Below are positions 13,517 through 25,995 of a stretch of DNA of 33,848 bases, piece after piece; positions within the stretch are counted from its first letter, which is position 1, and every line of letters starts with the position of its first letter. Origin of the DNA: Vicinamibacterales bacterium. Its GTDB lineage: Bacteria > Acidobacteriota > Vicinamibacteria > Vicinamibacterales > UBA8438. Below the pieces are notes generated by a model that did no database searches, was not told the DNA's origin, and saw only the letters and a list, made by a program, of their open reading frames with translations. The stretch lies in contig JASLOY010000001.1 of the NCBI GenBank assembly GCA_030745255.1, positions 1 to 33,848 on the forward strand, written 5' to 3'. A program made the position numbers and the translations under genes.

Positions 13517-14971
13517 TCACTGGCTATCGGAGTCATTCGCCTGGTAGAACGAACTCCGGTCGAAGAGATAGCGATACGCCAATCGCGGCGCCTCCCGGGG
13601 CACGACCACGAACGTGTTATAGGCGTTGCGCGAGAGCTGCAAACGCTGTCGGTCCATGAGATTGGCGCCAAACTGAGCCATCAACCCCAGATTCCACCAG
13701 ACCGAGAGCGCACAGACGCCCCAGGCCGCTCGGCGAAGGGCGGTACCGCGAATCGCCTGGAGTGCCGCCGCGAGCCCGACGACCCACACGACCGTCAACC
13801 CGACGAAACGGCGCTGGCCGAACGCCCCAGCCGCTGTCCAGGAATCGACGCTTCCGGTCACGTAGATCTGGGTGGCCACCATCAGACACAGAATCAGTCC
13901 GATTCGCCGCGTGTCGACCCGGTCGGCCGTCCCGTCGCTCGCCGACCATGCCATCCAGAGCAACCCCCCGGCCGCAACGAGCAAGAGCGGCGTCCAGACG
14001 AACAGGCCATGCTCCGGTGAGAACAGCACCTGCAGGCCGTGGGGCGCCAGCCAGTTCATCTTTTCGGTCACGACATCAGGAGGGCCGAGCCGGCCATTCA
14101 AGACGACGTAACTCATCGCCTGTGGGAGGTAGACAGTCGCGGACACGCCGCTGCCCACGCAGGCAGCGGTCAACCAGGATCGTGCCGCCTTGATTCGATC
14201 ACTGGAAGCGCTCACGTTCGCGATCGCCGTCCAGGTGAAATCCACCACAGGCCCGACCGCCAGCAGGAGATCTTGCTCTCGGACCATCGCCATCAGCGCT
14301 GTCGCTGCGCCCAGGGCCGCCATTCCCGGCAAAGACCAGGAGCGCCGGACGCGCAACCAGACCAGGGTGAACAGTGCCACCGCGAACGCCGAGCATGCAT
14401 GCGCCATCCCCGGCGCGATGTGGGTATAGAAGAGCAACGGTGTGCCGATCCAGATCACGGACCCGGCCACAACGCCACGACCCAGGAGCCGTCGCACGAT
14501 GGCCATGGAAATAGCAACTGCAAGCAACCCGTACACCGCCGATCCGTACGCGAGCGCCGACAGGTAGGGCTGGGAAAAGCCGTCGACCGCGACGCCGGAG
14601 CCGGCCAGGCGCATGCCTCGAGCCGTGAGATCTCCCACCGCATAGAAGGGTGCCCACAACAGAGCCGAGCCAATCGTGCCGAAGTTGTAGCGGAGGCCGG
14701 TCGGCGTCTCGAACTCGAGAAATGTTTCGTGGAACCCCCGGGCACGCGCGATTCCACGGTCGTAGAAGTACTCGTACTCGTTTTGAAACGAGACGTCGTG
14801 ATCGAACCAGAGCGATCGCAGGTAGGCGAAATACTGAATCTCGTCCGACGCGTAGAGCCGTGTCGTGACGGTGGGTAGCGAGAGCAGGAAGACGAGCACG
14901 AGCGGAAGGCCCACCCCTACTCGACCTGTCAGCGCATCGTCCAGAATCCGTAGGCGGCGGGGAATCTGCAT
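13517..14971 (-). CDS. Polytopic membrane protein, GT-C-like candidate (paralogue family member 1)
   Basis: 484-aa ORF with ATG 14971-14969 and many TM helices. First-loop motif SDEIQYFAYLRSLWFDHDVSFQNEY. Later blocks are IGSALLWAPFY, VREQD, FSPEHGLFVWTPLLL and WTAAGAFGQRRFVGL. All of these are shared with 18608..20647 and 24622..25995. Confidence 0.82.
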   Translation of the reverse strand: MQIPRRLRILDDALTGRVGVGLPLVLVFLLSLPTVTTRLYASDEIQYFAYLRSLWFDHDVSFQNEYEYFYDRGIARARGFHETFLEFETPTGLRYNFGTIGSALLWAPFYAVGDLTARGMRLAGSGVAVDGFSQPYLSALAYGSAVYGLLAVAISMAIVRRLLGRGVVAGSVIWIGTPLLFYTHIAPGMAHACSAFAVALFTLVWLRVRRSWSLPGMAALGAATALMAMVREQDLLLAVGPVVDFTWTAIANVSASSDRIKAARSWLTAACVGSGVSATVYLPQAMSYVVLNGRLGPPDVVTEKMNWLAPHGLQVLFSPEHGLFVWTPLLLVAAGGLLWMAWSASDGTADRVDTRRIGLILCLMVATQIYVTGSVDSWTAAGAFGQRRFVGLTVVWVVGLAAALQAIRGTALRRAAWGVCALSVWWNLGLMAQFGANLMDRQRLQLSRNAYNTFVVVPREAPRLAYRYLFDRSSFYQANDSDSQ

Positions 14972-16607: not shown

Positions 16608-17703
16608 GCGTGAGCGCGTCACGATCCCGTTTCTGACGCTGAAACCTGGTGAAGAGGCTGAGGCGATCGATGCAGCCATCCGGCGAGTCGTCACCCGTGG
16701 ATGGTTCGTGCTTGGCCCTGAAGTCGAGAGCTTCGAACGCGAGTTCGCGACCGCGTCAGGAATAGCGCATACCGTCGGCGTGGGCAACGGTACGGACGCG
16801 CTGTTCCTGCTGCTCAAGGCACTCGGCATCGGGCCCGGCGATGAGGTCATCACGACGCCACTCTCGGCGGCGTTCAGCGCGTTGGCGATCGTGATGGCTG
16901 GCGCACGACCAGTGTTCGCAGATATCGACGTCAACCGCCTGACGATTGATCCGGCGGCCGTGCGGGCGGCGGTGGGTCCGAAGACGGCGGCCATCCTCCC
17001 GGTTCACCTCTACGGTCAGCCAGCCGATATGCCGGCCCTGGCCGACGTCGCGAGCCGCCACCATCTCGCCCTCATCGAAGATTGCTGCCAGGCGCACCTC
17101 GCCACCTGCGCGGGACGCCCAGTCGGCACCTTCGGGCAGGGCGGCGCGTTCAGCTTCTATCCGACAAAGAATCTGGGTGCTGTGGGTGATGGCGGCGTGG
17201 CCTGCACCGGTGATGAGCAGACGGCGGAGCGGATCAGAAAGCTGCGGAACGGTGGCCAGTCCGCACAGTATCGCCACGACCTGGCGGGCGTGAACTCCCG
17301 CCTCGATGACATCCAGGCGGCGGTGCTGCGCGCAAAGCTTCCGTTCCTCGAACGGTGGACGGCGCGGCGTCGGGCGCTAGCGGCGTTGTACCGAGAGCAC
17401 CTTGCCGTCGTCGAACCGACAGTGCCCGCTGAGCACGACCCGGGCCACGTCTACCACCTGTTCCCGGTCCGATCAGTGGCGCGCGACCGGCTTCGACAGC
17501 ATCTGCGGACCTCGGGTATCGATACCCTCATCCACTACCCCACGCCCCTCACGCAGCAACCTGCGTTCGCGGAGCACCGGCCAGCGGCGGCTCCAGTTGC
17601 TGAGGCGATCTGTCGCGAGCTCGTCTCCCTGCCATTGCACCCGGCACTCACCGACGCCTCCGCGAACCAGGTCATCGACGCGGTGCGCGCCTTTGCGCCG
17701 TGA
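16597..17703 (+). CDS. DegT/DnrJ/EryC1/StrS-family PLP-dependent sugar aminotransferase
   Basis: Motifs are IPFLTLKPGEEAEAIDAAIRRVVTRGWFVLGPEV, GVGNGTDALFLLLKALGIGPGDEV, and FSFYPTKNLGAVGDGG, which holds the PLP lysine. Overlaps the upstream gene by 11 nt. Confidence 0.92.
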   Translation: MPNKRERVTIPFLTLKPGEEAEAIDAAIRRVVTRGWFVLGPEVESFEREFATASGIAHTVGVGNGTDALFLLLKALGIGPGDEVITTPLSAAFSALAIVMAGARPVFADIDVNRLTIDPAAVRAAVGPKTAAILPVHLYGQPADMPALADVASRHHLALIEDCCQAHLATCAGRPVGTFGQGGAFSFYPTKNLGAVGDGGVACTGDEQTAERIRKLRNGGQSAQYRHDLAGVNSRLDDIQAAVLRAKLPFLERWTARRRALAALYREHLAVVEPTVPAEHDPGHVYHLFPVRSVARDRLRQHLRTSGIDTLIHYPTPLTQQPAFAEHRPAAAPVAEAICRELVSLPLHPALTDASANQVIDAVRAFAP

Positions 17704-17713
17704 GAATACAACG

Positions 17714-18127
17714 ATGCATAGCGCACATCCTGAATTGTCCGTGGGCAGATGGACGCGTCGCGCCATTACGCACCGCGTGATTGGAGGGCTGACGCGCGAT
17801 GTCATCTACCGGAAACAGACAGAGTTGTCGCGTCGGTACGCCGAGCAATTTCGTCCAGATCTGCGCTGCAGTCAGGCCGGGGAGGATGGCATCATTCGGG
17901 AAATCGTTCGGCGGCTGCAACTTTCCGACGGATGGTTTGTCGAACTCGGCGCGGGCGATGGTGTTCTCTTCAGCAACACCTACGCTTTGCGCAGAAACGG
18001 ATGGCGAGGCGTCGGCATCGAATCCGACCCCGACCGCTTCGTCGCCTTGCAGCAGATAGCGGCTTGCGAGAGAGAACTACGTGACGATGTGCCGGCGTGT
18101 TTCGGCGGAGGGCAAGGATTGTCTTGA
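17714..18127 (+). CDS. FkbM-like (Methyltransf_21-type) methyltransferase, N-terminal fragment; probably one frameshifted gene together with 18081..18527
   Basis: ATG 17714 lies 10 nt after the DegT stop. The fragment holds the first half of the domain: CSQAGEDGIIREIVRRLQLSDGWFVELGAGDGVLFSNTYALRRNGWRGVGIESDPDRF. The frame ends at TGA 18125-18127 after a non-homologous tail. Confidence 0.65.
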   Translation: MHSAHPELSVGRWTRRAITHRVIGGLTRDVIYRKQTELSRRYAEQFRPDLRCSQAGEDGIIREIVRRLQLSDGWFVELGAGDGVLFSNTYALRRNGWRGVGIESDPDRFVALQQIAACERELRDDVPACFGGGQGLS

Positions 18128-18527
18128 CGTCGTGTTGAAAGAATCGCCGTTGCCGCGCTACTTCGATCTCTTCAGCCTTGACATCGACAGCTATGACTAC
18201 TGGATCTGGCGTTCTCTTCAGGACTATCGCCCCACGATTGTTGTGGTGGAGTACAACCCTTTCTTTGCTCCCACAGAGGCGAAGACACTTCCTCTTAACC
18301 TGGCGACAGAGTGGCCGTACTTCGGCGCTAGCCCCGCCGCCTTGGAAAGCCTCGGCCGTGCCAAGGACTACCGGCTAGTTGGGTATACGAGCGGATTGAA
18401 CCTGTTCTTCGTGCTTGAACAATTCGCGCGTGGCCTGTTTGAACGGCTCCCGGTCCGCTGCGTTCCAACGGAGCCGCACGATGTCAGGCAGCAGTGGACG
18501 CAATGGGACCGCTTTGTAGATGTCTGA
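18081..18527 (+). CDS. FkbM-like methyltransferase, C-terminal fragment (frame +1 relative to 17714..18127)
   Basis: This frame is open from 18060. It continues the same domain: ENYVTMCRRVSAEGKDCLDVVLKESPLPRYFDLFSLDIDSYDYWIWRSLQDYRPTIVVVEYNP. It has no plausible independent N-terminus. Confidence 0.65.
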   Translation: MTMCRRVSAEGKDCLDVVLKESPLPRYFDLFSLDIDSYDYWIWRSLQDYRPTIVVVEYNPFFAPTEAKTLPLNLATEWPYFGASPAALESLGRAKDYRLVGYTSGLNLFFVLEQFARGLFERLPVRCVPTEPHDVRQQWTQWDRFVDV

Positions 18528-18607
18528 AAGCTAGAGATCGATCCGGGCGCCTGACAACCTGAGCCGACCCGCGGCGTCGATCCACGTCGCCTAGAAGTGT
18601 TGACGCT

Positions 18608-20647
18608 CTACGACTCCTCGAGGACCCGCTGGAGCCGGAGGGTGGCCACTTGAACAGACAGCCGTCTGGTGTCCTCCGAGAGTCCGAGTTCCTCAGGCGA
18701 GACGGCGTACCGATAGCGAAAACGCAGCTGATTCAGGTTGAACCGGAGTACCGCTGCGGGGATCTCAACGCGGTCGACCTGCATGCCCGGCTGAAGCGTC
18801 AGCGTCGCCACGGAGGTCGTGTTCACTTCTATCTCGACAGTCTGTGGTGGCAACCCAGGGCCGATGAATGGTCCCCACTCGAGTTCCAAGAGGTAGTCAT
18901 CCTCGTTCGTCTTGAGGGGAACAAGCACGGTTGACGTCTCGTTGTTTGCCCACCGAAACGAGAAACTTGGATGCTGTTCCCGCGCCGCCCACCCGTGCCC
19001 CAGGAACCGCTCGTCGTCTGGCGCACCAACGTCAATCAAGAGATTGTTGTACGTCCGGCCGCGTAGACGATCGTACACGGGCAGGCCCACATCGTACCGC
19101 CACGCGACGTAGGCGCCAATCGGCAGCGAGAACGGATTGCCGACGCGCTCGTACAACTCGTCCATGACGCTGTTGAACGCCACGCCCTCGGTTGGAGACA
19201 ACGTGCCGTTGCGATAGCCGAGCATGAACACGGTGTTGAATAGCAGTACGGCGCACAGGGTTACGACCGGCGCGATGAGCGGACGTCGCTGGACCGCGGC
19301 CAGGAGGCCAGCCAGGCCGATGGCGAAGACGAGCGCGCAGTTGGCAAAGCGTCGCGCACCAAAGCCCACGCCACCCCACCAGATCTCGACCGCCCCGTTG
19401 ATCCAGACCTGCGCGAGAAAACCGCCGGCCAGCACCAGGGCGACACGCCCGTGGTGGCGCGCGAAGAACATCAGACCAATCAGCGCAGCGCCGATGACGG
19501 GCGTCCACGACAGCAGCCCGCGGTTCGATGAAAAGAGAACGTCGGTCATGTACGGCGGAAGCAACGTCGGTTGAAACGCGTGCTCACGCACCGGTAGGTA
19601 GACCCACGATCCGTAGACGGCCTTCCAGAACACGAGTTGCGGCACGAACGCGGCGAATGCGGCTCCGGTGAACCTGACCAGGTCTCGGCTTCCTGCCCAC
19701 ACCCAAGCACGGCTGTCTCCGCTCCGAGCGCGCCAGGATGACCAGAGGAGATCACCCAGAGGCAGCACCACGAACGCGATGTTCTGCCACCGCACCATCG
19801 CCATGACGCCCGCCGCGGCACCAAGCCAGACCCAGGGCACCCGTGTCGGCAGGTCTCGAGATCTGTGCCAGAGGAAGAGGAACAGCGTGGTCGCGAACAT
19901 CGAGACGCCGTGCACCATCGAATTGTCGACAGTGAGATACCAGATCAGGAACGAGCTGCCGCACAACCCCAGCGTCGACAGGCAAGCCAGTCCCCTGGAG
20001 AAATACTTTCGCAACACCCGATAGATGAGGACGAGACCGACGAATCCGTACAGGAGTGTCCCGAGTCCGATGGCCCGCTGATACGGGAAGTAGTAGCCGT
20101 CGACGCGCAGATCTCCTCCCAGAAGATTCAGCGCGCCAAGCCAGACGTGGCCGAAGATGAAGAAGGGGCTCCAAAGGATTGGTGCACCGAAGGCGTACTG
20201 CCTCGCGCCGTGTCCGCCAAACTCCGCCTCATCGTTGGCGAAGTCGAGGTCCCAGTCCATGACCAGAGACCGCACCTGCACGAAGTAGGAGCGGCCGTCG
20301 GAAGCCGCTCGCTCGAAGCCCAGATGAAACAACAAGAGCAAGAGCAACAGGAATGCGACGAAGACGACACCGACGGCATCGAGCCTCGCGAAGTGCCGCA
20401 TCAGGAAACTGCGCGCGGGGGGTGCTACGTGTCGCGCCAACTGCCTGGTGACCAGCACGAGCACGAAGATGGCCATGAGCCAACCGGCGAGTACCGACGG
20501 GCCGTCGCGATACAGCCAGAGTAACGAGATGTGCCAGACAGCGAAGCAGGCGAGCAACAGGAGGGTCAGCGTGACGCCCCAGGCGTATCTCACCCACGCG
20601 GCCGGGTGACCGTCGTGGCTAAGTGGGTCGGTGGAAGACGCGACCAT
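18608..20647 (-). CDS. Polytopic membrane protein, GT-C-like candidate (paralogue family member 2) with C-terminal soluble domain
   Basis: 679-aa ORF with ATG 20647. First-loop motif SDGRSYFVQVRSLVMDWDLDFANDE. Later blocks are FGAPILWSPFF, VRWQN, FSSNRGLLSWTPVIG and WWGGVGFGARRFANC. The C-terminal ~190 aa are hydrophilic (FSFRWANNETSTVLV ... DTRRLSVQVATLRL). Confidence 0.85.
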   Translation of the reverse strand: MVASSTDPLSHDGHPAAWVRYAWGVTLTLLLLACFAVWHISLLWLYRDGPSVLAGWLMAIFVLVLVTRQLARHVAPPARSFLMRHFARLDAVGVVFVAFLLLLLLLFHLGFERAASDGRSYFVQVRSLVMDWDLDFANDEAEFGGHGARQYAFGAPILWSPFFIFGHVWLGALNLLGGDLRVDGYYFPYQRAIGLGTLLYGFVGLVLIYRVLRKYFSRGLACLSTLGLCGSSFLIWYLTVDNSMVHGVSMFATTLFLFLWHRSRDLPTRVPWVWLGAAAGVMAMVRWQNIAFVVLPLGDLLWSSWRARSGDSRAWVWAGSRDLVRFTGAAFAAFVPQLVFWKAVYGSWVYLPVREHAFQPTLLPPYMTDVLFSSNRGLLSWTPVIGAALIGLMFFARHHGRVALVLAGGFLAQVWINGAVEIWWGGVGFGARRFANCALVFAIGLAGLLAAVQRRPLIAPVVTLCAVLLFNTVFMLGYRNGTLSPTEGVAFNSVMDELYERVGNPFSLPIGAYVAWRYDVGLPVYDRLRGRTYNNLLIDVGAPDDERFLGHGWAAREQHPSFSFRWANNETSTVLVPLKTNEDDYLLELEWGPFIGPGLPPQTVEIEVNTTSVATLTLQPGMQVDRVEIPAAVLRFNLNQLRFRYRYAVSPEELGLSEDTRRLSVQVATLRLQRVLEES

Positions 20648-20724: not shown

Positions 20725-22644
20725 CTATCGCTCCCAGACGCTCAATTCATACGCCGACCAGGGCCGCTCCCTGGACTTCCCGGTCTGCTGGATGAGCAGC
20801 TCATCCGTGTCGTTCGGTGGAAAGTCGACCTCAATGGCGCTCCGAAGGAAGTTGTCACGCATCACGCCTCTGACCAGCGGCGGCAGCCCGCTCCCCTCGT
20901 AGAGGAGAGTTCTCGGCTTCGCTCCCCCGGCTTCGATTCTCAACTCTCTGGGGTAGTCGCCGAAACCCCTCCGGTGGAGATCCAGCCGGAGCCGCGCCAC
21001 GTTGCGGGACCGATCGAAGACGACAGCGATCCATTCGTCCCCCTGCTGCCTGCCACCAGTGAGCCATTCAGTGTTCACGTCTCCGTCGACGAGGAGCGGT
21101 AGCCGATCCTTGTTGTGTGACGCGTCGAGTGCGAACGCGGCATCAGGAATGCGTCGGATCTTGGCCGTCTCCCTAAAGGGGGGCGGCGCGTCCGCCAGAA
21201 AGAAACGCACCAGAGATCCCTCGCTCACCTCGCCGACCAGCTGGTCAGTCGCGGCCCGAAGCGCCTCCACGGTGCGCCGGCCACGCCGGACGTCCTGGTA
21301 GCGATCGGGGTCAATCACGACCTCCCGGATACCGGCTTCACGCCACGCCTTCAGTGCAGGCGCGACCTGCGTCCGATCATCCAGCGGCGAGGTGCTCCGG
21401 GCAAAGAAGCTGCGCAGCGATGGCCACTGCAATCCGCTCGCCTGCGACAGCGGATGCCTTCCAGCCCGGGTCGCCAGCGCCGCATCGAGACTGTCCGGAA
21501 AGAAGTCCTCCGGGACGACGGGCAGCCTCAGCCTGCCGCCGAAGCGCTCGACAGACACCCAGCGAGGCACGGCCTCGGCGTTCGCGCCGTCGGCGGCTAG
21601 CTGGTCGTGACCGGTAAGAATGCGTTCTGTCCGAGCCAGTTGATCTGACAGCCAGCTGGACTCGACCATGACGGCGCGCTGTTCAGGGTAGCGCAGGACA
21701 TTACCGGCGATCATGAGGCCGATCATGAGCCACAGGCCAACGCGCCACGCGAACTGCTTGACATCGAGCCGCGTCAACAGCAGCGATGCTCCAAACAGGA
21801 ACGCGACCTGGACGGAGAAGAAGTAGTACCAATACGAGTGATCGGGGATGGTGTAGACGGGTGGATGGCCGAGAATCATCAACGCACTCATCAGCCAGAG
21901 CCCGCCGACGACCGCGAGTACGAGCATCGTGTCGCAGACAAGTCGCCGCCGCCACACATCTGGTCCGTCCTGGGTCGGCGCGTGCCGCCAGTAGAACCCG
22001 ATCGCTAGCCCCACGGCTCCCCAGAGCGGCACGCCGCCCAGCCAGAACCCCGCCTGCCGGGCGATCAGCTCTCCTGCCCGGCTCCACAGTCCTTGATCCC
22101 AGAGCCCTGCTAGCTCCAGGCGTTGGAAGGTCAGATCCGGATGGTACCCGTTGAGACTGAACACCAACCACGGCGCGACGAGCTGATTGTAGAGGCTCCC
22201 GCTGACGAGGACCGCCAGCAACACTCCACCGATGGCGATCGAGGTTCGGCGATCCGGGCGCGACGAGGGGGGCGAGACCACGACCCACACCACGAACATC
22301 GAGAGGCACAAGACGAGGAAGAACACACCTTGACGATCGGCGAGCGACATGCCGAGCGCGAGGAGGAAGAGCCCGGCGAACGCCCAGGCAGACCGCCCTG
22401 GTGCGCGATGGCTTCTGAGCAGCGCGAGCAGCTGGAAGAGGAACAGGAGCAGCAGCACGGACAGGAGGATCTTGGCCGATCGGTAGAAGATGGCCGTCGA
22501 CGACTGCACGACGATCGTGCTGAGACACCAACTCAGGAGAAACGCCGTGGTGATTCGGTCCAGCCCCAGGAGTCGCCTGGCGCCAGCGGCGTAGAGCCCC
22601 ATGAGGGAGGCCAGACCCAAGACACCGCTAGTCGGCATCAACAA
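20725..22644 (-). CDS. Polytopic membrane protein with C-terminal F5/8 type C (discoidin/CBM32-like) domain; major fragment of a gene apparently split by a frameshift
   Basis: 639-aa ORF (TTG 22644), but the frame stays open upstream to 22743 and encodes sensible sequence there (GAYQARELSYLVDFFDAQVFARLYSWGILLL). About 10 or more TM helices. C-terminus: LLVDGDVNTEWLTGGRQQGDEWIAVVFDRSRNVARLRLDL ... YPRELRIEAGG ... WSAYELSVWER. Confidence 0.82.
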   Translation of the reverse strand: MLMPTSGVLGLASLMGLYAAGARRLLGLDRITTAFLLSWCLSTIVVQSSTAIFYRSAKILLSVLLLLFLFQLLALLRSHRAPGRSAWAFAGLFLLALGMSLADRQGVFFLVLCLSMFVVWVVVSPPSSRPDRRTSIAIGGVLLAVLVSGSLYNQLVAPWLVFSLNGYHPDLTFQRLELAGLWDQGLWSRAGELIARQAGFWLGGVPLWGAVGLAIGFYWRHAPTQDGPDVWRRRLVCDTMLVLAVVGGLWLMSALMILGHPPVYTIPDHSYWYYFFSVQVAFLFGASLLLTRLDVKQFAWRVGLWLMIGLMIAGNVLRYPEQRAVMVESSWLSDQLARTERILTGHDQLAADGANAEAVPRWVSVERFGGRLRLPVVPEDFFPDSLDAALATRAGRHPLSQASGLQWPSLRSFFARSTSPLDDRTQVAPALKAWREAGIREVVIDPDRYQDVRRGRRTVEALRAATDQLVGEVSEGSLVRFFLADAPPPFRETAKIRRIPDAAFALDASHNKDRLPLLVDGDVNTEWLTGGRQQGDEWIAVVFDRSRNVARLRLDLHRRGFGDYPRELRIEAGGAKPRTLLYEGSGLPPLVRGVMRDNFLRSAIEVDFPPNDTDELLIQQTGKSRERPWSAYELSVWER

Positions 22645-22948
22645 CAGGATGCCCCACGAGTACAGACGGGCAAAGACCTGCGCGTCGAAGAAATCGACCA
22701 GATAGCTCAGCTCCCTGGCCTGGTATGCCCCCCCAGTCGTTCAGCGAGGGGTCGAAGATGATCGCGGCGAGTGGCCGGTCTGCCAGATAGTTGAGAATGA
22801 AGGCCAGAGCCTCTTTGTCGACCAGGCCGCGTCCCCAGAATCCAACGGCATGAACGGCGAGCAGAATCGGCAGCAGCCAGACGGCCGAGTTCCAACGGCT
22901 TGCCGAGGTCTCATCACGATCGGCGAGGCTCGGCGTCGCGTCACCCAT
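22628..22948 (-). CDS. N-terminal fragment (first TM helix and loop) of the 20725..22644 membrane protein, separated by a frameshift at a G7 tract
   Basis: ATG 22948-22946 overlaps the upstream gene's stop by 8 nt (ATGGGTGA). It encodes MGDATPSLADRDETSASRWNSAVWLLPILLAVHAVGFWGRGLVDKEALAFILNYLADRPLAAIIFDPSLNDWG and then runs into the homopolymer. The sequence after the tract (GIPGQGAELSGRFLRRAGLCPS...) looks non-coding. Confidence 0.6.
   Translation of the reverse strand: MGDATPSLADRDETSASRWNSAVWLLPILLAVHAVGFWGRGLVDKEALAFILNYLADRPLAAIIFDPSLNDWGGIPGQGAELSGRFLRRAGLCPSVLVGHPVVDAD
22728..22734. repeat. Homopolymer tract C7 (G7 on the coding minus strand) at the frameshift point
   Basis: Direct count: 22727 g, 22728-22734 ccccccc, 22735 a. 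The tract lies inside the 22628-22743 interval where both reading frames are open. Confidence 0.95.
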
Positions 22949-24473
22949 CGGCTATCGAAAGACGGCGCAGCTTGTGGGCACACGCCGCCGCCAGACCCAG
23001 TGGGAGACCAGCAAGCACGAGCGCCACTGGAGCCGAAATGATGCGGAGATGAAACAGGTACATCCACCAGAGATCCAGACTGAACGCAAACTGTGAAGAG
23101 AAATCGCGTGCCAGACCTTCGGCAGCCTTCACTTCCGGGCGGGGCTCCGCACCTGACAGGTAGCGCGCGTTGAGCGGGACGGCCCTCATCGCGGCCTGCG
23201 TATTGAGCACGAGCGCCGCCGAGCCCCACTCCCACCGACGCGCTTCTATGGACCGATATCCAAGCTCAGGCGTGTGGCCGACCTTGGAGAAATCCAGGAG
23301 CACGCCGGGAATCTGGACCGCCACACTACAGATGAGGCCGGCAATCGCGGCACGCCGCCTGAATTCACCGCCTGGGCGCGCGAACCAGACCCCAAGGGGT
23401 AGGCAGAGAAACGGCAGCATCGGAAGCAGGTAGCGAGGGCCGTATGACCGTTCGCCCTCCCAATGAAAGAGCGATGCGTAGAAGCAAAACAGCGTCAACA
23501 TCACTCCGCCGAACAGAATGGCGGTTCGCCGATCGACTCGGCTGAACTCGGCCAGCGCTACCGCGCCCAGAATCAGCAGCGGTGAGTACAGAAACACGGA
23601 GCCTCCCGGGCTAACAAGGAATCCCCAAGCTCCAAGCCAGACTGACCCGATACCCGCCGTCTCATCCCGGAGGTAGCCGGTATCGATGGGGTTCCCGAAT
23701 CGTACAGCGTTGTAGTAGGCGGTTAGGAGGACCGCTACCACGATCGGTGCGGCCACGAGCGCCGTGGCCTGAAAGAACTGCCTCCACTTCGGCCGATACT
23801 CGAGCGCCAGCCAGAGGGTGACCGGCACCGCGATCAACACTAACTCATGGCGCACCAACAAGGCCCAGCCGATGCCAACACCGCCGGCCACCAGCATGCC
23901 CGGTCGAGCGAGGCGAGCACCTACCCAGACGCCGTACACCCCGGCGAGCACGCACAAGGTGGCGAGCGGGGCGCTGAACCCGAACTTGGAGTACGGCCAG
24001 AGCATCGTCGCGAATCCCAACGATAGGGCTGACAGGATGGCCAGCCGGATCGCGCCGAACAGCCTCCAGGTGAACCAGAAGGCCAGCCAGACAATCGCCG
24101 CCGCGGCCACCGCGCTCCCGACCACGAGGCTCGCCTTTCGCACGGCGTCGGCCTTGCCTACGTCGAGACCGGTCAGGCGCTCCGCCGTCGCGCCGGCCAG
24201 GTAGAACGGCGCGCTGTACAGGGCATGCCCGATGCCGTACGGCGCGTAGTACCGCCCGTCGACACCGCGGTGGGCCTCCATACCGAACACGTCGTACGAC
24301 ATCGCCACGGAACCGTGCTCGACGATGCTCTTCGTCACCTCGTAAGTCATGATGTCGGTGGCCATGCTGCCACCGGCCGTCGTGACGTAGAGGCAGAGAC
24401 TCAACAGGAAGACGAGCCGTCCGGCGTGGCTGACCTGCCTGGGTGTCTGGCGGACGATTCGATCCGGATGCAT
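22941..24473 (-). CDS. Polytopic membrane protein, GT-C-like (ArnT/PMT_2-like) glycosyltransferase candidate
   Basis: ORF 22941..24584 (TTG). I prefer ATG 24473-24471 (MHPDRIVRQTPRQVSHAGRLVFLLSLCLYV), because the 37 upstream codons are R/P/S-rich and look non-coding. First-loop motif GGSMATDIMTYEVTKSIVEHGSVAM. Later motifs GGSVFLYSPLLILG and HWEGERSYGPRYLLPMLPFL. Confidence 0.82.
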   Translation of the reverse strand: MHPDRIVRQTPRQVSHAGRLVFLLSLCLYVTTAGGSMATDIMTYEVTKSIVEHGSVAMSYDVFGMEAHRGVDGRYYAPYGIGHALYSAPFYLAGATAERLTGLDVGKADAVRKASLVVGSAVAAAAIVWLAFWFTWRLFGAIRLAILSALSLGFATMLWPYSKFGFSAPLATLCVLAGVYGVWVGARLARPGMLVAGGVGIGWALLVRHELVLIAVPVTLWLALEYRPKWRQFFQATALVAAPIVVAVLLTAYYNAVRFGNPIDTGYLRDETAGIGSVWLGAWGFLVSPGGSVFLYSPLLILGAVALAEFSRVDRRTAILFGGVMLTLFCFYASLFHWEGERSYGPRYLLPMLPFLCLPLGVWFARPGGEFRRRAAIAGLICSVAVQIPGVLLDFSKVGHTPELGYRSIEARRWEWGSAALVLNTQAAMRAVPLNARYLSGAEPRPEVKAAEGLARDFSSQFAFSLDLWWMYLFHLRIISAPVALVLAGLPLGLAAACAHKLRRLSIADG

Positions 24474-24592
24474 TACTCGATCGGAGGATGGCTCGGTGTC
24501 GCCGTCAGAATAGCATGGGAGACGGGTCGGAATTCTCGCGCCGTCGACTCGAATGTACCGTGCCGGCCGCGAGGGCGCACGCAACCATCGGC

Positions 24593-24621: not shown

Positions 24622-25995
24622 TTGATCGTGTCGAACGGCCTGCACCTGCATCAACGCGAACGGCGTCCAATCCTCACGTTCTCCGCCATTGGGTGTGGCC
24701 TTGCCGTGGCGTACACACTTGCGGTGACGCTCTTTGCCGGCGCGGCAGGACAGATCATCGAAGGCGATGCCGTGCAGTACTATGCCTATCTTCGATCCCT
24801 GGTCTTCGATCAGGACGTCAACTTCATCAATGACTACCAATTGTTGTACGGGTCCGACGGCGCGTCGAACGTGTGGCTGGACACCACGACCGATACCGGA
24901 CACGCCATTAACTTGATGTCGATCGGCCCAGCGCTGCTGTGGTTGCCGTTCTTCCTCGTCGCCTGTGGTCTCGTGGCGCTGCTCCGGACGGCTGGCGTGG
25001 TTGTCGCGTTCGACGGTATCAGCACGCCGTTTCAACTCTCCGCGGGCATCGCCAGCATCGCGTACGCGACGCTAGGAGCCTATCTCTGCTATCGCGCATG
25101 CGTCCGCTTCTGGCCGCCTGCCGCGTCGCTCTGGGGCACGCTGGCCGCCTGGCTGGCGACGCCGGCACTTTATTACTGCCTCGTCTCGCCGGCCTACTCC
25201 CACGCGACGTCGCTGTTCGTCGTGGCACTGTTCATCTGGACCTGGCTGCGGACGATGGGGGACCAGCGCGCCATCAGGTATGGGTTGCTCGGAATCTTGG
25301 TTGGTCTGGCCGCGCTCGTCCGTTGGCAGAACGTCACGATCCTGATCTTGCCCATGGCCGAACTCGTCCGTGAGCTACGTGACGACAAGACAACTCTGCG
25401 CGGCGCGGCGGTTCAGGTCGGGGTGCTGGGCGCGGCGTCGCTTGTGGCGTTCTTGCCGCAGATGTTCGCCTGGAAACAGATCTACGGGCACTGGCTCCTC
25501 ACGCCGCAGGGCGAAGGATTCATGCAATGGATGAACCCGCAGGTCTGGGCGGTCCTCTTCTCGCTGAATCACGGCCTTTTCTCCTGGACGCCGGCCGTCC
25601 TCGTCGCCGTGCTCGGTCTGGCCGTGCTGGTCGCGCGACACCCGTTCGTGGGTTGGAACAGCGTGGCGGTCCTGCTGACTGCCGTCTACATCAACGCTGC
25701 GGTCGTCGACTGGTGGGCAGGCGAAGCGTTCGGCGCGCGACGCTTCATCGGCCTTACTCCGCTCTTCGCTCTGGGACTCGCAGCAGTGTTTTCGACACGT
25801 CTCCTCGTGAGACGACCACAGCTGGTGGGGGTGGCCGCCAGCGGTCTGATCGTGTACAACCTGCTGTTTCTCGTGCAGTATCAGCTGTTCATGCGAGGCT
25901 ACAGTGAGTTGGTCGCCTATCCGACCTCCGCCAAACAGATTCTCATTGATCGTGTGATCCTTCCATGGACGCTCTTCCGCCATTGGATCGGATGA
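24622..25995 (+). CDS. Polytopic membrane protein, GT-C-like candidate (paralogue family member 3)
   Basis: 457-aa ORF starting at TTG 24622 (GTG 24628 is an alternative), preceded by GAGGAAGG. First-loop motif GDAVQYYAYLRSLVFDQDVNFINDY. Later blocks are IGPALLWLPFF, VRWQN, FSLNHGLFSWTPAVL and WWAGEAFGARRFIGL. Confidence 0.85.
   Translation: MIVSNGLHLHQRERRPILTFSAIGCGLAVAYTLAVTLFAGAAGQIIEGDAVQYYAYLRSLVFDQDVNFINDYQLLYGSDGASNVWLDTTTDTGHAINLMSIGPALLWLPFFLVACGLVALLRTAGVVVAFDGISTPFQLSAGIASIAYATLGAYLCYRACVRFWPPAASLWGTLAAWLATPALYYCLVSPAYSHATSLFVVALFIWTWLRTMGDQRAIRYGLLGILVGLAALVRWQNVTILILPMAELVRELRDDKTTLRGAAVQVGVLGAASLVAFLPQMFAWKQIYGHWLLTPQGEGFMQWMNPQVWAVLFSLNHGLFSWTPAVLVAVLGLAVLVARHPFVGWNSVAVLLTAVYINAAVVDWWAGEAFGARRFIGLTPLFALGLAAVFSTRLLVRRPQLVGVAASGLIVYNLLFLVQYQLFMRGYSELVAYPTSAKQILIDRVILPWTLFRHWIG

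What the first reader, a model, noticed from the sequence alone, without database searches (positions are those of the whole stretch)
22628..22948. Membrane/discoidin-domain gene interrupted exactly at a G7 homopolymer: candidate phase-variable switch (or homopolymer assembly error)
The ORF 22628-22948 (-) starts at an ATG that overlaps the stop of the upstream gene by 8 nt (ATGGGTGA), which is typical translational coupling. It encodes a credible N-terminus with a TM helix (NSAVWLLPILLAVHAVGFWG) up to ...IIFDPSLNDWG. At that point the minus strand reads GAC TGG GGG GGC ATA, which is the G7 tract (plus strand C7, 22728-22734). In the frame of the downstream 639-aa ORF the sequence right after the tract reads GAYQARELSYLVDFFDAQVFARLYSWGILLLMPTSG. 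This is plainly coding, but it has no start codon until TTG 22644. Removing one G (G6) or adding two (G9) fuses the two ORFs into one protein of about 740 aa (...NDWGAYQARELSYLVDFF...). Both frames are open only in 22628-22743, so the shift must lie there, and the homopolymer is the obvious site. Slipped-strand mispairing at poly-G/C tracts is an established on/off mechanism for surface-glycan genes in several bacteria. A 7-mer is short but within the reported range.
Basis: partly seen in the sequence, partly recalled or inferred. Interest (0 to 1): 0.7.

Follow-up and report, generated by a model that had tools for sequence, protein, structure and literature searches.

The report
Frameshifted glycan gene at G7 run
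A membrane sugar-transferase-like gene in an uncultured marine Acidobacteriota genome is broken by one extra G in a run of Gs; the break is real and reproducible, but it looks like an ordinary recent loss-of-function mutation rather than an evolved on/off switch.

Summary
On the minus strand the sequence reads GAC TGG GGG GGC (C7 on the plus strand, 22728-22734). Deleting one G fuses the 106-aa and 639-aa ORFs into a 740-aa protein. About 75 relatives encode one uninterrupted 718-767-aa protein across ...FDPSLNDWG|AYQARELSY..., the family's most conserved motif. The closest orthologue (~90% nt identity) has G6 at this site.

An assembly error is unlikely. G7 appears in five assemblies: the GenBank MAG contig (the window), two JGI samples that differ by one SNP, and two Logan assemblies. 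No other split gene was seen in the window.

Phase variation is not supported, though reads were not available to exclude it:
- No length variant was found in this strain.
- The tract is not conserved. The Gly codon varies (GGG/GGC/GGT/GGA), so the run is 1-6 in relatives.
- G7 runs are not enriched (2 observed, 6.4 expected).

The rest of the frame is intact (dN/dS 0.25). The only SNP in 16.6 kb between the two samples changes a family-invariant Phe in the broken gene.

Best reading: a recent G6-to-G7 slippage insertion that inactivates a GT-C-like, CBM32-bearing glycan gene. The same gene is also knocked out by IS and MITE-like insertions in a sister clade. The finding is ordinary and of low to moderate interest.

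The parts
22728..22734 (-). G7 homopolymer (C7 on the plus strand). This is the site of the +1 insertion relative to the ancestral TGG GGG GCA (Trp-Gly-Ala).
   Evidence: The closest orthologue has G6 with identical flanks. All other relatives carry G1-G6 here and stay in frame.
22628..22948 (-). N-terminal fragment ORF (106 aa; GenBank QF681_00100). Residues 1-73 are native: TM1 and the first half of the conserved loop, up to ...FDPSLNDWG. The last 33 residues are an out-of-frame tail.
   Evidence: The start ATG overlaps the upstream stop by 8 nt. The same arrangement is inferred for the sister lineage from the 756-aa start of P0072 and the L003 gene coordinates.
22645..22727 (-). Coding sequence stranded between the tract and the first possible restart codon. 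It encodes AYQARELSYLVDFFDAQVFARLYSWGIL (fused residues 74-101). Neither ORF translates it in the native frame.
   Evidence: It contains the family-invariant Q, A, R, E, Y and D columns (Q69 A70 R71 E72 Y75 D78 in P0001 numbering).
20725..22644 (-). C-terminal fragment ORF (639 aa from TTG; GenBank QF681_00095; JGI aa from an internal ATG). It holds the remaining TM helices, a soluble domain and a C-terminal CBM32/discoidin-like domain (about 20728-21150).
22838..22840 (-). Codon 37 (TTC, Phe) of the N-terminal fragment. JGI sample 3300035250 has GTC (Val). This is the only difference in 16,569 bp between the two samples, and it falls on a family-invariant Phe.
22941..24584 (-). Upstream gene, probably translationally coupled. 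It encodes a multi-TM protein with weak similarity to LA_3751/LA_3752-family putative glycosyltransferases.
   Evidence: It is syntenic in the sister lineage.
18608..20647 (-). Downstream gene on the same strand: a GT39/PMT_2-like membrane glycosyltransferase (GenBank: glycosyltransferase family 39 protein).

Best explanation
A genuine single-G slippage insertion (G6 to G7) has recently frameshifted a gene for a large membrane protein. The protein has a GT-C-like glycosyltransferase fold with a C-terminal CBM32/discoidin-like domain. The gene sits in the surface-glycan cluster of an uncultured marine Vicinamibacterales (Acidobacteriota) population.

Shown:
- The ancestral state is one protein of about 740 aa.
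- The break lies in the TGG GGG GCA (Trp-Gly-Ala) codons, inside the family's most conserved motif (FDPxxNDWGAYQARExxYxxD), between TM1 and TM2.
- The frameshifted allele is the assembled consensus in at least two samples.

Inferred:
- The allele is a loss of function. The N-fragment ends in 33 nonsense residues.
- Any restart product lacks TM1 and the conserved loop. By analogy with GT-C enzymes, that loop carries the catalytic acidic residues.
- 28 conserved residues are translated in neither product.
- The event is recent, because the rest of the frame is intact and still looks selected.
- The G run exists only because Trp-Gly-Ala with a GGG glycine codon gives G6. It is not a dedicated switch.
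- Reversion (G7 to G6) can occur at the ordinary slippage rate of a 7-mer. No evidence shows that this is used as a regulated or selected on/off mechanism.
For: - All full-length relatives are single proteins of 718-767 aa covering 97-100% of the fused query. The junction motif is contiguous in all of them.
- The junction lies among invariant columns F58 D59 P60 N63 D64 Q69 A70 R71 E72 Y75 D78.
- The closest orthologue (87% aa, about 90% nt identity, at least 20 contigs) has G6 with identical flanks.
- G7 is present, at 99.99-100% identity, in JGI 3300035205, JGI 3300035250, Logan SRR11745179, Logan SRR25584951 and the GenBank MAG contig. The two JGI samples differ by a SNP, so they are separate read sets.
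- No intact 740-aa allele of this strain exists among the roughly 15 billion proteins searched.
- No other split gene was seen in the 33.8-kb window, and a second G7 (79-85) lies in frame.
- dN/dS against the sister lineage is 0.25 (neighbours 0.14). The changes on the window branch (23 N / 35 S) do not differ from the sister branch (21 N / 48 S, Fisher p = 0.35). There has been no long decay.
- The only SNP in 16,569 bp between samples is F37V at an invariant Phe of the broken gene. The chance of such a hit is about 0.5%. This hints at relaxed constraint.
- The same gene is independently inactivated in the sister clade by an IS3-family insertion and by a 367-bp MITE-like insertion with TIRs and an 8-bp TSD.
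- Fold: the AF2 model has pLDDT 89. The top Foldseek hits are the GT-C arabinofuranosyltransferase AftD (E = 4.5e-9) and CBM32 modules.
Against: - No reads were available, so minority G6 or G8 alleles within the samples cannot be excluded.
- The five assemblies may derive from as few as two or three read sets of one project.
- The 2.2-kb frame has no second lesion and is still under purifying selection. That also fits a sequencing artefact or a reversible switch kept under selection.
- The relaxed-constraint hint rests on a single SNP.
- Loss of function is inferred from conservation and fold analogy. It was not tested.
Confidence: 0.65

Rival explanations
1. Contingency locus. The G tract is a slipped-strand phase-variation switch that turns this surface-glycan gene on (G6 or G9) and off (G7 or G8) at high frequency, for example under phage pressure. 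The sampled populations happen to be in the OFF phase.
For: - The tract is an intragenic poly-G in the 5' part of a glycan-cluster gene, and a +/-1 change toggles the frame.
- The frame is otherwise intact and under purifying selection.
- In the sister clade a second G tract in the same gene is seen as G7, G9 and G10 among genomes about 99.4% identical. This shows slippage in this gene in nature, if those assemblies are accurate.
- Short tracts can phase-vary. G7-G8 changes have been measured in C. jejuni (PMC3401435). A C6 tract in bvgS of high-GC Bordetella is phase-variable (PMC1891110).
Against: - All five assemblies of the strain carry G7, and no intact allele is on record.
- The tract is not conserved. 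Relatives use GGG, GGC, GGT or GGA, or other residues, so the run is 1-6 and never out of frame in about 75 loci.
- The ON state would be G6, which is only a by-product of Trp-Gly-Ala codons.
- G7 runs are not enriched in the window (2 against 6.4 expected).
- In 67%-GC Bordetella only C/G tracts longer than 8 exceed chance. In C. jejuni the modal phase-variable tract is G9-G10, and the rate rises steeply with length.
- The in-frame G7 at site 2 of the P0001 lineage shows no broken variants on long contigs.
- F37V at an invariant residue argues against continued selection on the OFF allele.
- The G9 and G10 variants in the sister clade sit in copies already killed by an IS. They come from low-coverage, probably long-read assemblies.
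Confidence: 0.14
2. Sequencing or assembly artefact. The true sequence is G6 and the gene is intact. The extra G is a homopolymer error.
For: - The break is a single-base difference in a homopolymer.
- The ORF is otherwise perfect, with dN/dS well below 1.
- The sequence comes from a MAG.
- Some assemblies of relatives clearly contain indel noise, for example P0006.
Against: - G7 is reproduced in five assemblies made by at least three pipelines (JGI, Logan, the MAG authors). They cover at least two read sets, distinguished by a SNP.
- No other split gene was seen in the 33.8-kb window, and ten other runs of 6 or more bases are present without one.
- The Logan contigs are 100% identical to the window over 2.5 kb. 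This fits accurate short reads (inference), for which a majority +1 error at a 7-mer is not expected (own knowledge).
Confidence: 0.09
3. Recoding. The full-length protein is made from the G7 template by programmed +1 ribosomal frameshifting or by transcriptional slippage on the G run.
For: A P-site tRNA-Gly on GGG can re-pair perfectly in the +1 frame within the G run (from the sequence). Low-level leaky frameshifting is therefore conceivable.
Against: - The site is not conserved. Every relative is in frame.
- There is no stop codon or hungry codon in the A site next to the slippery GGG.
- No Rfam element was found.
- The downstream RNA is not unusually structured (z = -0.60).
- Known transcriptional slippage uses longer A/T runs (own knowledge).
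Confidence: 0.03
4. Genuinely split gene. The 106-aa and 639-aa products work together as two subunits.
For: GenBank and JGI both annotate two separate CDSs.
Against: - No relative has two ORFs.
- 28 conserved residues, including the invariant QARE..Y..D, are translated in neither product.
- The N-fragment carries a 33-residue nonsense tail.
Confidence: 0.02

Closest known systems
Poly-G/C phase-variable surface-glycan genes of Campylobacter jejuni (e.g. cj1139 G8, capA G11; PMC3401435)
   Same: The tract is an intragenic G homopolymer in a glycan-related gene. A +/-1 nt change switches the reading frame on or off by slipped-strand mispairing.
   Different: In C. jejuni the tracts are modal G9-G10. 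They are strongly over-represented in a 31%-GC genome that has almost no G7 tracts. They are polymorphic within cultures, with measured rates of 1e-4 to 1e-3. Here the tract is G7 in a 66%-GC genome. It arose from a G6 that only reflects Trp-Gly-Ala codons. It is not over-represented, not conserved, and not polymorphic across five assemblies.
Homopolymeric-tract variation in high-GC Bordetella (PMC1891110), including the bvgS C6 frameshift
   Same: The genome is high-GC. A short C/G run in a coding sequence can gain or lose a base and inactivate the gene. Differences between lineages in tract length mark such sites.
   Different: In Bordetella, candidate loci were C/G tracts longer than 8 that exceed the Markov expectation. 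Heterogeneity was demonstrated by PCR/LDR within cultures. No heterogeneity is demonstrated here.
Ordinary frameshift loss-of-function alleles (nascent pseudogenes) in surface-polysaccharide loci (own knowledge)
   Same: There is a single indel in an otherwise intact ORF, and orthologues are intact. The locus is accessory and is repeatedly hit by IS and MITE-like insertions in relatives.
   Different: Nothing essential differs. This is the class I file the finding under.
GT-C fold membrane glycosyltransferases with carbohydrate-binding modules (e.g. mycobacterial AftD, PDB 6w98)
   Same: The protein has a multi-helix membrane domain and soluble carbohydrate-binding modules. Conserved acidic residues lie in the loop after TM1. 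AftD is the top Foldseek hit at E = 4.5e-9.
   Different: There is no detectable sequence similarity to any Pfam, NCBIfam or PDB GT-C. TMq is only 0.34, and the protein is about half the size of AftD. Activity and substrate are unknown.
prfB-type programmed +1 ribosomal frameshift
   Same: A +1 shift would be needed to read through, and a G-rich stretch is present.
   Different: There is no in-frame stop at the shift site, no conservation, and no CUU-type slippery codon.

Membership tests
SSR-mediated phase-variable (contingency) locus | A repeat tract inside the reading frame (or promoter) whose +/-1 unit change switches expression | tested here: met
   G7 is out of frame. G6 or G9 gives a 740-aa ORF.
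SSR-mediated phase-variable (contingency) locus | Tract-length heterogeneity within a population or among near-identical strains | tested here: not met
   Tested at assembly level only. Five assemblies at 99.99-100% identity all carry G7, and no intact allele is in the protein collection. Read-level heterogeneity could not be tested.
SSR-mediated phase-variable (contingency) locus | Tract longer or more frequent than composition predicts, and maintained as a repeat in relatives | tested here: not met
   There are 2 G7 runs against 6.4 expected. In relatives the run is 1-6 because the Gly codon wobbles, and it is never 7 or more at this site.
SSR-mediated phase-variable (contingency) locus | High reversible switching rate (about 1e-5 to 1e-2 per division) | not testable with these tools
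   This needs cultures or deep amplicon sequencing.
Frameshift loss-of-function allele / nascent pseudogene | Orthologues encode one uninterrupted protein across the break | tested here: met
Frameshift loss-of-function allele / nascent pseudogene | The lesion is reproducible in independent data | tested here: met
   The data cover at least two read sets and at least three pipelines.
Frameshift loss-of-function allele / nascent pseudogene | The break removes conserved, presumably essential residues | tested here: met
   The break lies between invariant D64 and Q69, and 28 conserved residues are left untranslated. Essentiality is inferred.
Frameshift loss-of-function allele / nascent pseudogene | Signs of relaxed selection after the break | tested here: inconclusive
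   dN/dS is 0.25 against 0.14 in neighbours. The branch test is not significant (p = 0.35). One SNP gives F37V at an invariant Phe.
Homopolymer assembly error | Not reproduced in independent assemblies or read sets | tested here: not met
   G7 is reproduced five times.
Homopolymer assembly error | Accompanied by other homopolymer frameshifts in the same contig | tested here: not met
   No other split gene was seen in the ORFs of 180 aa or more that were scanned, and the Pfam domains found are complete.
Programmed frameshift / transcriptional slippage recoding | The shift site is conserved in orthologues | tested here: not met
   All relatives are in frame.
Programmed frameshift / transcriptional slippage recoding | Stimulatory elements (stop or rare codon in the A site, SD-like spacer, downstream structure) | tested here: not met
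   The A-site codon after the slippery GGG is GGC. There is no Rfam hit, and the downstream fold has z = -0.60.
GT-C fold glycosyltransferase | Structural similarity of the membrane domain to solved GT-C enzymes | tested here: inconclusive
   The top three Foldseek hits are AftD (E 4.5e-9 to 1.8e-7), but TMq is 0.30-0.35 and rmsd about 18-20. The model has pLDDT 89.
GT-C fold glycosyltransferase | Conserved acidic residues in the first extracytoplasmic loop after TM1 | tested here: met
   Invariant D59, D64, E72 and D78 lie between helices 18-28 and 72-90. The side of the membrane was not determined.
GT-C fold glycosyltransferase | Sequence membership in a curated GT-C family (PMT_2, GT39, GT83, etc.) | tested here: not met
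   There is no Pfam, NCBIfam or PDB sequence hit for the membrane part. hhalign against the neighbouring GT39-like protein is negative.
Discoidin / F5_F8 type C / CBM32 domain | C-terminal beta-sandwich matching the family by sequence or fold | tested here: met
   Pfam scores 18 bits, below the 28.2 cut-off, in the window protein. PF00754 is precomputed in many orthologues. The profile hits F5/8 and CBM32 chains. Foldseek gives CBM32 matches at TMt 0.6-0.74.

The most novel reading that the evidence does not exclude
The G runs created by Trp-Gly(-Gly)-Ala codons in this uncharacterised GT-C-like gene family may act as real contingency tracts in free-living marine Vicinamibacterales. Site 1 is G6/G7 in the window lineage. 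Site 2 is G7/G9/G10 in the sister clade. Together they would switch a surface glycan on and off, for example under phage pressure. That would be SSR phase variation in an uncultured, non-host-associated, high-GC oligotroph.
Probability: 0.12. Interest if true: 0.55.

Novelty: new member of a known kind. Interest (0 to 1): 0.27.

Why it matters
Practically, GenBank (QF681_00095 and QF681_00100) and IMG annotate two 'hypothetical proteins' where there is one frameshifted gene. Both entries should be flagged as a disrupted gene. The intact family is a widespread, unnamed protein of about 740 aa in Vicinamibacteria and Verrucomicrobiota, with N-terminal membrane-domain relatives in Lentisphaerota and other phyla. 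It has a GT-C-like fold plus a CBM32 domain and deserves a family definition.

Biologically, the frameshift adds to the IS and MITE-like knock-outs seen in the sister clade. Together they show that this glycan locus is repeatedly lost in natural marine Acidobacteriota populations. This is the pattern expected for accessory surface structures under fluctuating selection such as phage pressure. If read data showed tract heterogeneity, it would extend SSR phase variation to free-living marine oligotrophs. On present evidence that is unlikely.

Tried and rejected
- Split two-subunit gene. Rejected: no relative is split, and 28 conserved residues are untranslatable.
- Programmed +1 frameshift or transcriptional slippage. 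Rejected as the normal mode of expression: the site is not conserved, there is no Rfam element, and there is no significant downstream structure.
- Assembly-quality explanation. I looked for other broken genes with a GC3/stop-to-stop map and Pfam domain completeness and found none.
- Long-standing pseudogene. Rejected by dN/dS and by the outgroup branch counts.
- Sequence homology of the membrane domain to the neighbouring GT39/PMT_2 proteins, Pfam, NCBIfam or PDB. None was found. Only the fold search gave a GT-C lead.
- Literature search for the sample and run accessions, to learn the platform and habitat. It returned nothing.
Within-sample alternative alleles could therefore only be sought through the protein collection, and none was found.
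- First run_python attempt at the locus comparison failed on a file name and was repeated.
- One paper reading failed on a search term that was too short and was repeated.
Full report
**1. The observation**

The minus strand at 22745-22720 reads CTG AAC GAC TGG GGG GGC ATA CCA. This is a run of seven G, or C7 on the plus strand at 22728-22734.

- ORF 22628-22948(-) is 106 aa. Its ATG overlaps the TGA of the upstream ORF 22941-24584(-) in the 8-mer ATGGGTGA.
- In the +1 frame the sequence is open from the TGA at 22741-22743. It reads (T)TGGAYQARELSYLVDFFDAQVFARLYSWGILLLMPTSG..., with no ATG, GTG or TTG before TTG 22644. From there the 639-aa ORF runs to 20725.
- Removing one G gives a single 740-aa ORF.

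The tract as such is not statistically remarkable. There are two G7/C7 runs in the window, against 6.4 +/- 3.3 in dinucleotide-preserving shuffles. The other run (79-85) lies in frame inside a GT4 gene.

**2. Where the frame breaks**

A search with the fused protein found 65 relatives. The full-length ones are single proteins of 718-767 aa that cover 97-100% of the query. All of them read ...(I/L)FDPxxNDWGAYQARELSY... without interruption.

In a 33-sequence alignment the break lies between invariant D64 and invariant Q69. It sits inside the densest block of invariant columns of the family: F58 D59 P60 N63 D64 Q69 A70 R71 E72 Y75 D78.

At DNA level the closest lineage is P0001 (87% aa, about 90% nt identity), carried on at least 20 contigs from JGI, ENA, Logan and NCBI. 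It reads AAC GAT TGG GGG GCA TAC, which is G6, with otherwise identical flanks.

**3. Is G7 real?**

The window is a GenBank MAG contig of 33,848 bp from a Vicinamibacterales bacterium. The two halves are annotated as QF681_00100 (106 aa) and QF681_00095 (639 aa). The same arrangement occurs in four other assemblies:

- JGI 3300035205, a 33,549-bp contig.
- JGI 3300035250, an 18,158-bp contig.
- Logan assembly of SRR11745179.
- Logan assembly of SRR25584951.

All four read ...GACTGGGGGGGCAT... and are 99.99-100% identical to the window. The 3300035250 contig differs from the window at one position in 16,569 bp, so at least two distinct read sets are involved. At least three assembly pipelines were used.

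No other gene in the window looks split. The GC3 and stop-to-stop maps are continuous, and the GT4, GT2, GT9, DegT and methyltransferase domains are complete. A majority +1 error at a 7-mer, reproduced across samples and assemblers while ten other runs of 6 or more bases are clean, is unlikely. I give the artefact reading about 0.09.

**4. Is it a phase-variation tract?**

Four lines of evidence speak against an evolved switch.

(a) No length variant of this strain is on record. The fused 740-aa protein has no 100%-identical full-length hit among about 15 billion proteins. The only 100% hits are the two fragments.

(b) The tract is not conserved. I scanned metagenome contigs with a pattern that accepts any run length from G4 to G10 and scanned GTDB species genomes with a protein profile. 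Together with the earlier loci this gave about 75 relatives.
- The Gly codon is GGG, GGC, GGT or GGA, or the residues differ, so the run is 1-6 nt.
- None of these relatives is out of frame at this site.
- G6 is simply what Trp (TGG) + Gly (GGG) + Ala (GCN) spells.

(c) Long G/C runs are not enriched in the window. For comparison, in 67%-GC Bordetella only C/G tracts longer than 8 exceed a Markov expectation, although C6 in bvgS is known to vary (PMC1891110). In C. jejuni, phase-variable tracts are modal G9-G10, the genome has almost no G7, and rates rise about 10-fold from G8 to G11 (PMC3401435).

(d) The only SNP between the two samples (window 22840, T to G on the minus strand) changes Phe37 to Val. 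This Phe is invariant in the family (F30 of P0001). A random substitution would hit such a site with probability about 0.005. It is a single event, but it is what relaxed constraint on a dead gene predicts. It is not what a switch held under selection predicts.

Three points favour a switch.
- The gene sits in a large surface-glycan cluster. The cluster holds seven GT4, three GT2, one GT9, four methyltransferases, a DegT aminotransferase, a Wzx-type flippase and several large PMT_2-like membrane proteins.
- The frame is otherwise intact.
- The gene is still under purifying selection.

I put true contingency behaviour at about 0.14. Read pileups are the decisive missing test.

**5. How old is the break?**

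dN/dS between the window gene (repaired in silico) and the P0001 lineage is 0.25. It is uniform along the gene: 0.22 before the tract, and 0.29 and 0.25 after it. The two flanking genes give 0.14.

I polarised the changes with the P0003 lineage as outgroup. The window branch carries 23 nonsynonymous and 35 synonymous changes. The sister branch carries 21 and 48 (Fisher p = 0.35). The gene has therefore not evolved as a pseudogene for any appreciable part of the roughly 10% nucleotide divergence. The insertion is recent.

**6. What the gene is, and why the break should inactivate it**

The family has no Pfam or NCBIfam model, and its membrane part has no PDB sequence relative. It shows no profile similarity to the neighbouring GT39-like protein.

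An AlphaFold2 model of the orthologue P0001 (33-sequence alignment, pLDDT 89, pTM 0.88) has three parts:
- about 13 long helices, up to residue ~445;
- a mixed alpha/beta soluble region;
- a C-terminal beta-sandwich.

Foldseek against the PDB ranks the mycobacterial GT-C arabinofuranosyltransferase AftD first (E = 4.5e-9, TMq 0.34). CBM32/discoidin modules follow for the C-terminus (TMt 0.6-0.74).

By analogy with GT-C enzymes, the catalytic carboxylates lie in the first extracytoplasmic loop (established knowledge of that fold). The invariant D59, D64, E72 and D78 loop between TM1 and TM2 would then be the active-site loop. This is an inference.

The frameshift cuts this loop.
- The N-fragment keeps 73 native residues and adds 33 nonsense residues.
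- A restart at TTG 22644 lacks TM1 and the loop. So does a restart at the ATG used by JGI.
- Residues 74-101 (AYQARELSYLVDFFDAQVFARLYSWGIL; 22645-22727) are translated in neither product.

A functional two-subunit arrangement is therefore rejected. Recoding is also unlikely. The site is unique to this lineage. The codon after the slippery GGG is the common GGC. No Rfam family matches. The downstream RNA folds no better than shuffles (z = -0.60).

**7. Context from the sister clade**

The 90% cluster of the P0003 lineage contains many fragments that lie on very long contigs. Inspection shows independent disruptions of the same gene:
- an IS3-family (rve) element inserted after about nt 1389 (L083, L085);
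- a 367-bp insertion with 21-nt terminal inverted repeats and an 8-bp target duplication GATTTCTT (L084);
- length changes at a second G tract, about 225 codons downstream of the first (Phe-Trp-Gly-Gly-Ala, TTC TGG GGG GGC GCT).

The second tract has these lengths:
- G7, in frame, in L037 and L084, and also in the P0001 lineage;
- G9, out of frame, in L083 and in the Logan contig L086;
- G10, in frame with one extra Gly, in L085.

The G9 and G10 copies are those already killed by the IS. The ENA contigs look like low-coverage long-read assemblies, so these lengths need read-level confirmation. The window has G4 at this second site.

In L037 the downstream gene, which corresponds to the window's GT39-like gene, appears interrupted by a DDE transposase. 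Taken together, this glycan locus is repeatedly inactivated in natural populations by ordinary mutational routes. That makes a real frameshift allele in the window lineage unsurprising.

**8. Verdict**

The most likely explanation (about 0.65) is a recent, genuine G6-to-G7 slippage insertion. It has produced a loss-of-function allele of a GT-C-like, CBM32-bearing glycan gene, and this allele dominates in at least two samples.

The rival explanations:
- phase variation, about 0.14;
- artefact, about 0.09;
- recoding, about 0.03;
- split gene, about 0.02.

This is a new instance of a well-known kind of event. The interest is low to moderate. The main value is in correcting the annotation and in showing recurrent natural loss of this locus.

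Noticed in passing
L037 ~4380, L083, L084, L085, L086 (second G tract, Phe-Trp-Gly-Gly-Ala); window equivalent about 22048-22062 (-): In the sister clade (P0003 lineage, genomes about 99.4% identical) a second G run in the same gene appears as G7 (in frame), G9 (frameshift, in an ENA 2-Mb contig and a Logan contig) and G10 (in frame, +1 Gly). The P0001 lineage has G7 in frame and the window has G4. This could be real slippage polymorphism or long-read homopolymer error.
   Followed up: partly
L083 3800-5199; L085 3801-5200: An IS3-family element (rve plus HTH_Tnp_1 ORFs) truncates the orthologous gene after about nt 1389 in two sister-clade genomes. The upstream neighbour is also reduced there, to 175 aa against 474-510 aa.
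   Followed up: partly
L084 5428-5794: A 367-bp insertion in the orthologous gene has 21-nt terminal inverted repeats (81% complementary) and an 8-bp direct duplication GATTTCTT. It is a MITE-like element that splits the gene into 548-aa and 161-aa ORFs.
   Followed up: partly
L037 5888-8076: In the P0003 contig the downstream gene, the counterpart of the window's GT39-like gene, appears interrupted by a DDE_Tnp_1 transposase gene (131-aa and 216-aa pieces on either side).
   Followed up: no
window 22838-22840 (-): The only difference in 16,569 bp between JGI sample 3300035250 and the window is TTC to GTC (F37V), at a family-invariant Phe of the broken gene.
   Followed up: yes
window 1-33848: The whole window is a glycan-biosynthesis island. 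It holds seven GT4, three GT2, one GT9, four SAM methyltransferases, a DegT aminotransferase, a GNAT, a Wzx-like flippase and at least five large multi-TM proteins. Two of these show weak PMT_2 hits. Three have no Pfam family (22941-24584, 24622-25995, 13517-14971). The first of the three has only a weak NCBIfam LA_3751/LA_3752 match, well below its cut-off.
   Followed up: partly
P0006 (ENA contig, 7,969 bp): A 692-aa relative drifts out of frame and back twice (about 40 and 120 residues of nonsense between conserved blocks). This is typical of indel noise in a long-read assembly. It warns that some ENA assemblies of this clade are not homopolymer-accurate.
   Followed up: no
L038-L041 (P0004 lineage, Tara and other marine samples): The 69%-identical orthologue is not in a glycan cluster. 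It lies between secG/tpiA/pgk/gap and a PAS-histidine kinase/response regulator pair. It has Trp-Ala-Ala (TGG GCC GCA) at the junction, so there is no G run at all.
   Followed up: no
window 17703-18608: A 0.9-kb stretch between the DegT gene and the GT39-like gene holds only small ORFs. JGI calls products of 131-146 aa and 137 aa on the plus strand of the window. No family was assigned.
   Followed up: no
L080 2545-2569: The Logan contig from SRR11745179 diverges from the window in its last 25 nt (beyond window 21286). Both Logan contigs start at almost the same position (23828/23829). These are possibly strain-variant branch points in the assembly graph, and neither is at the G tract.
   Followed up: no
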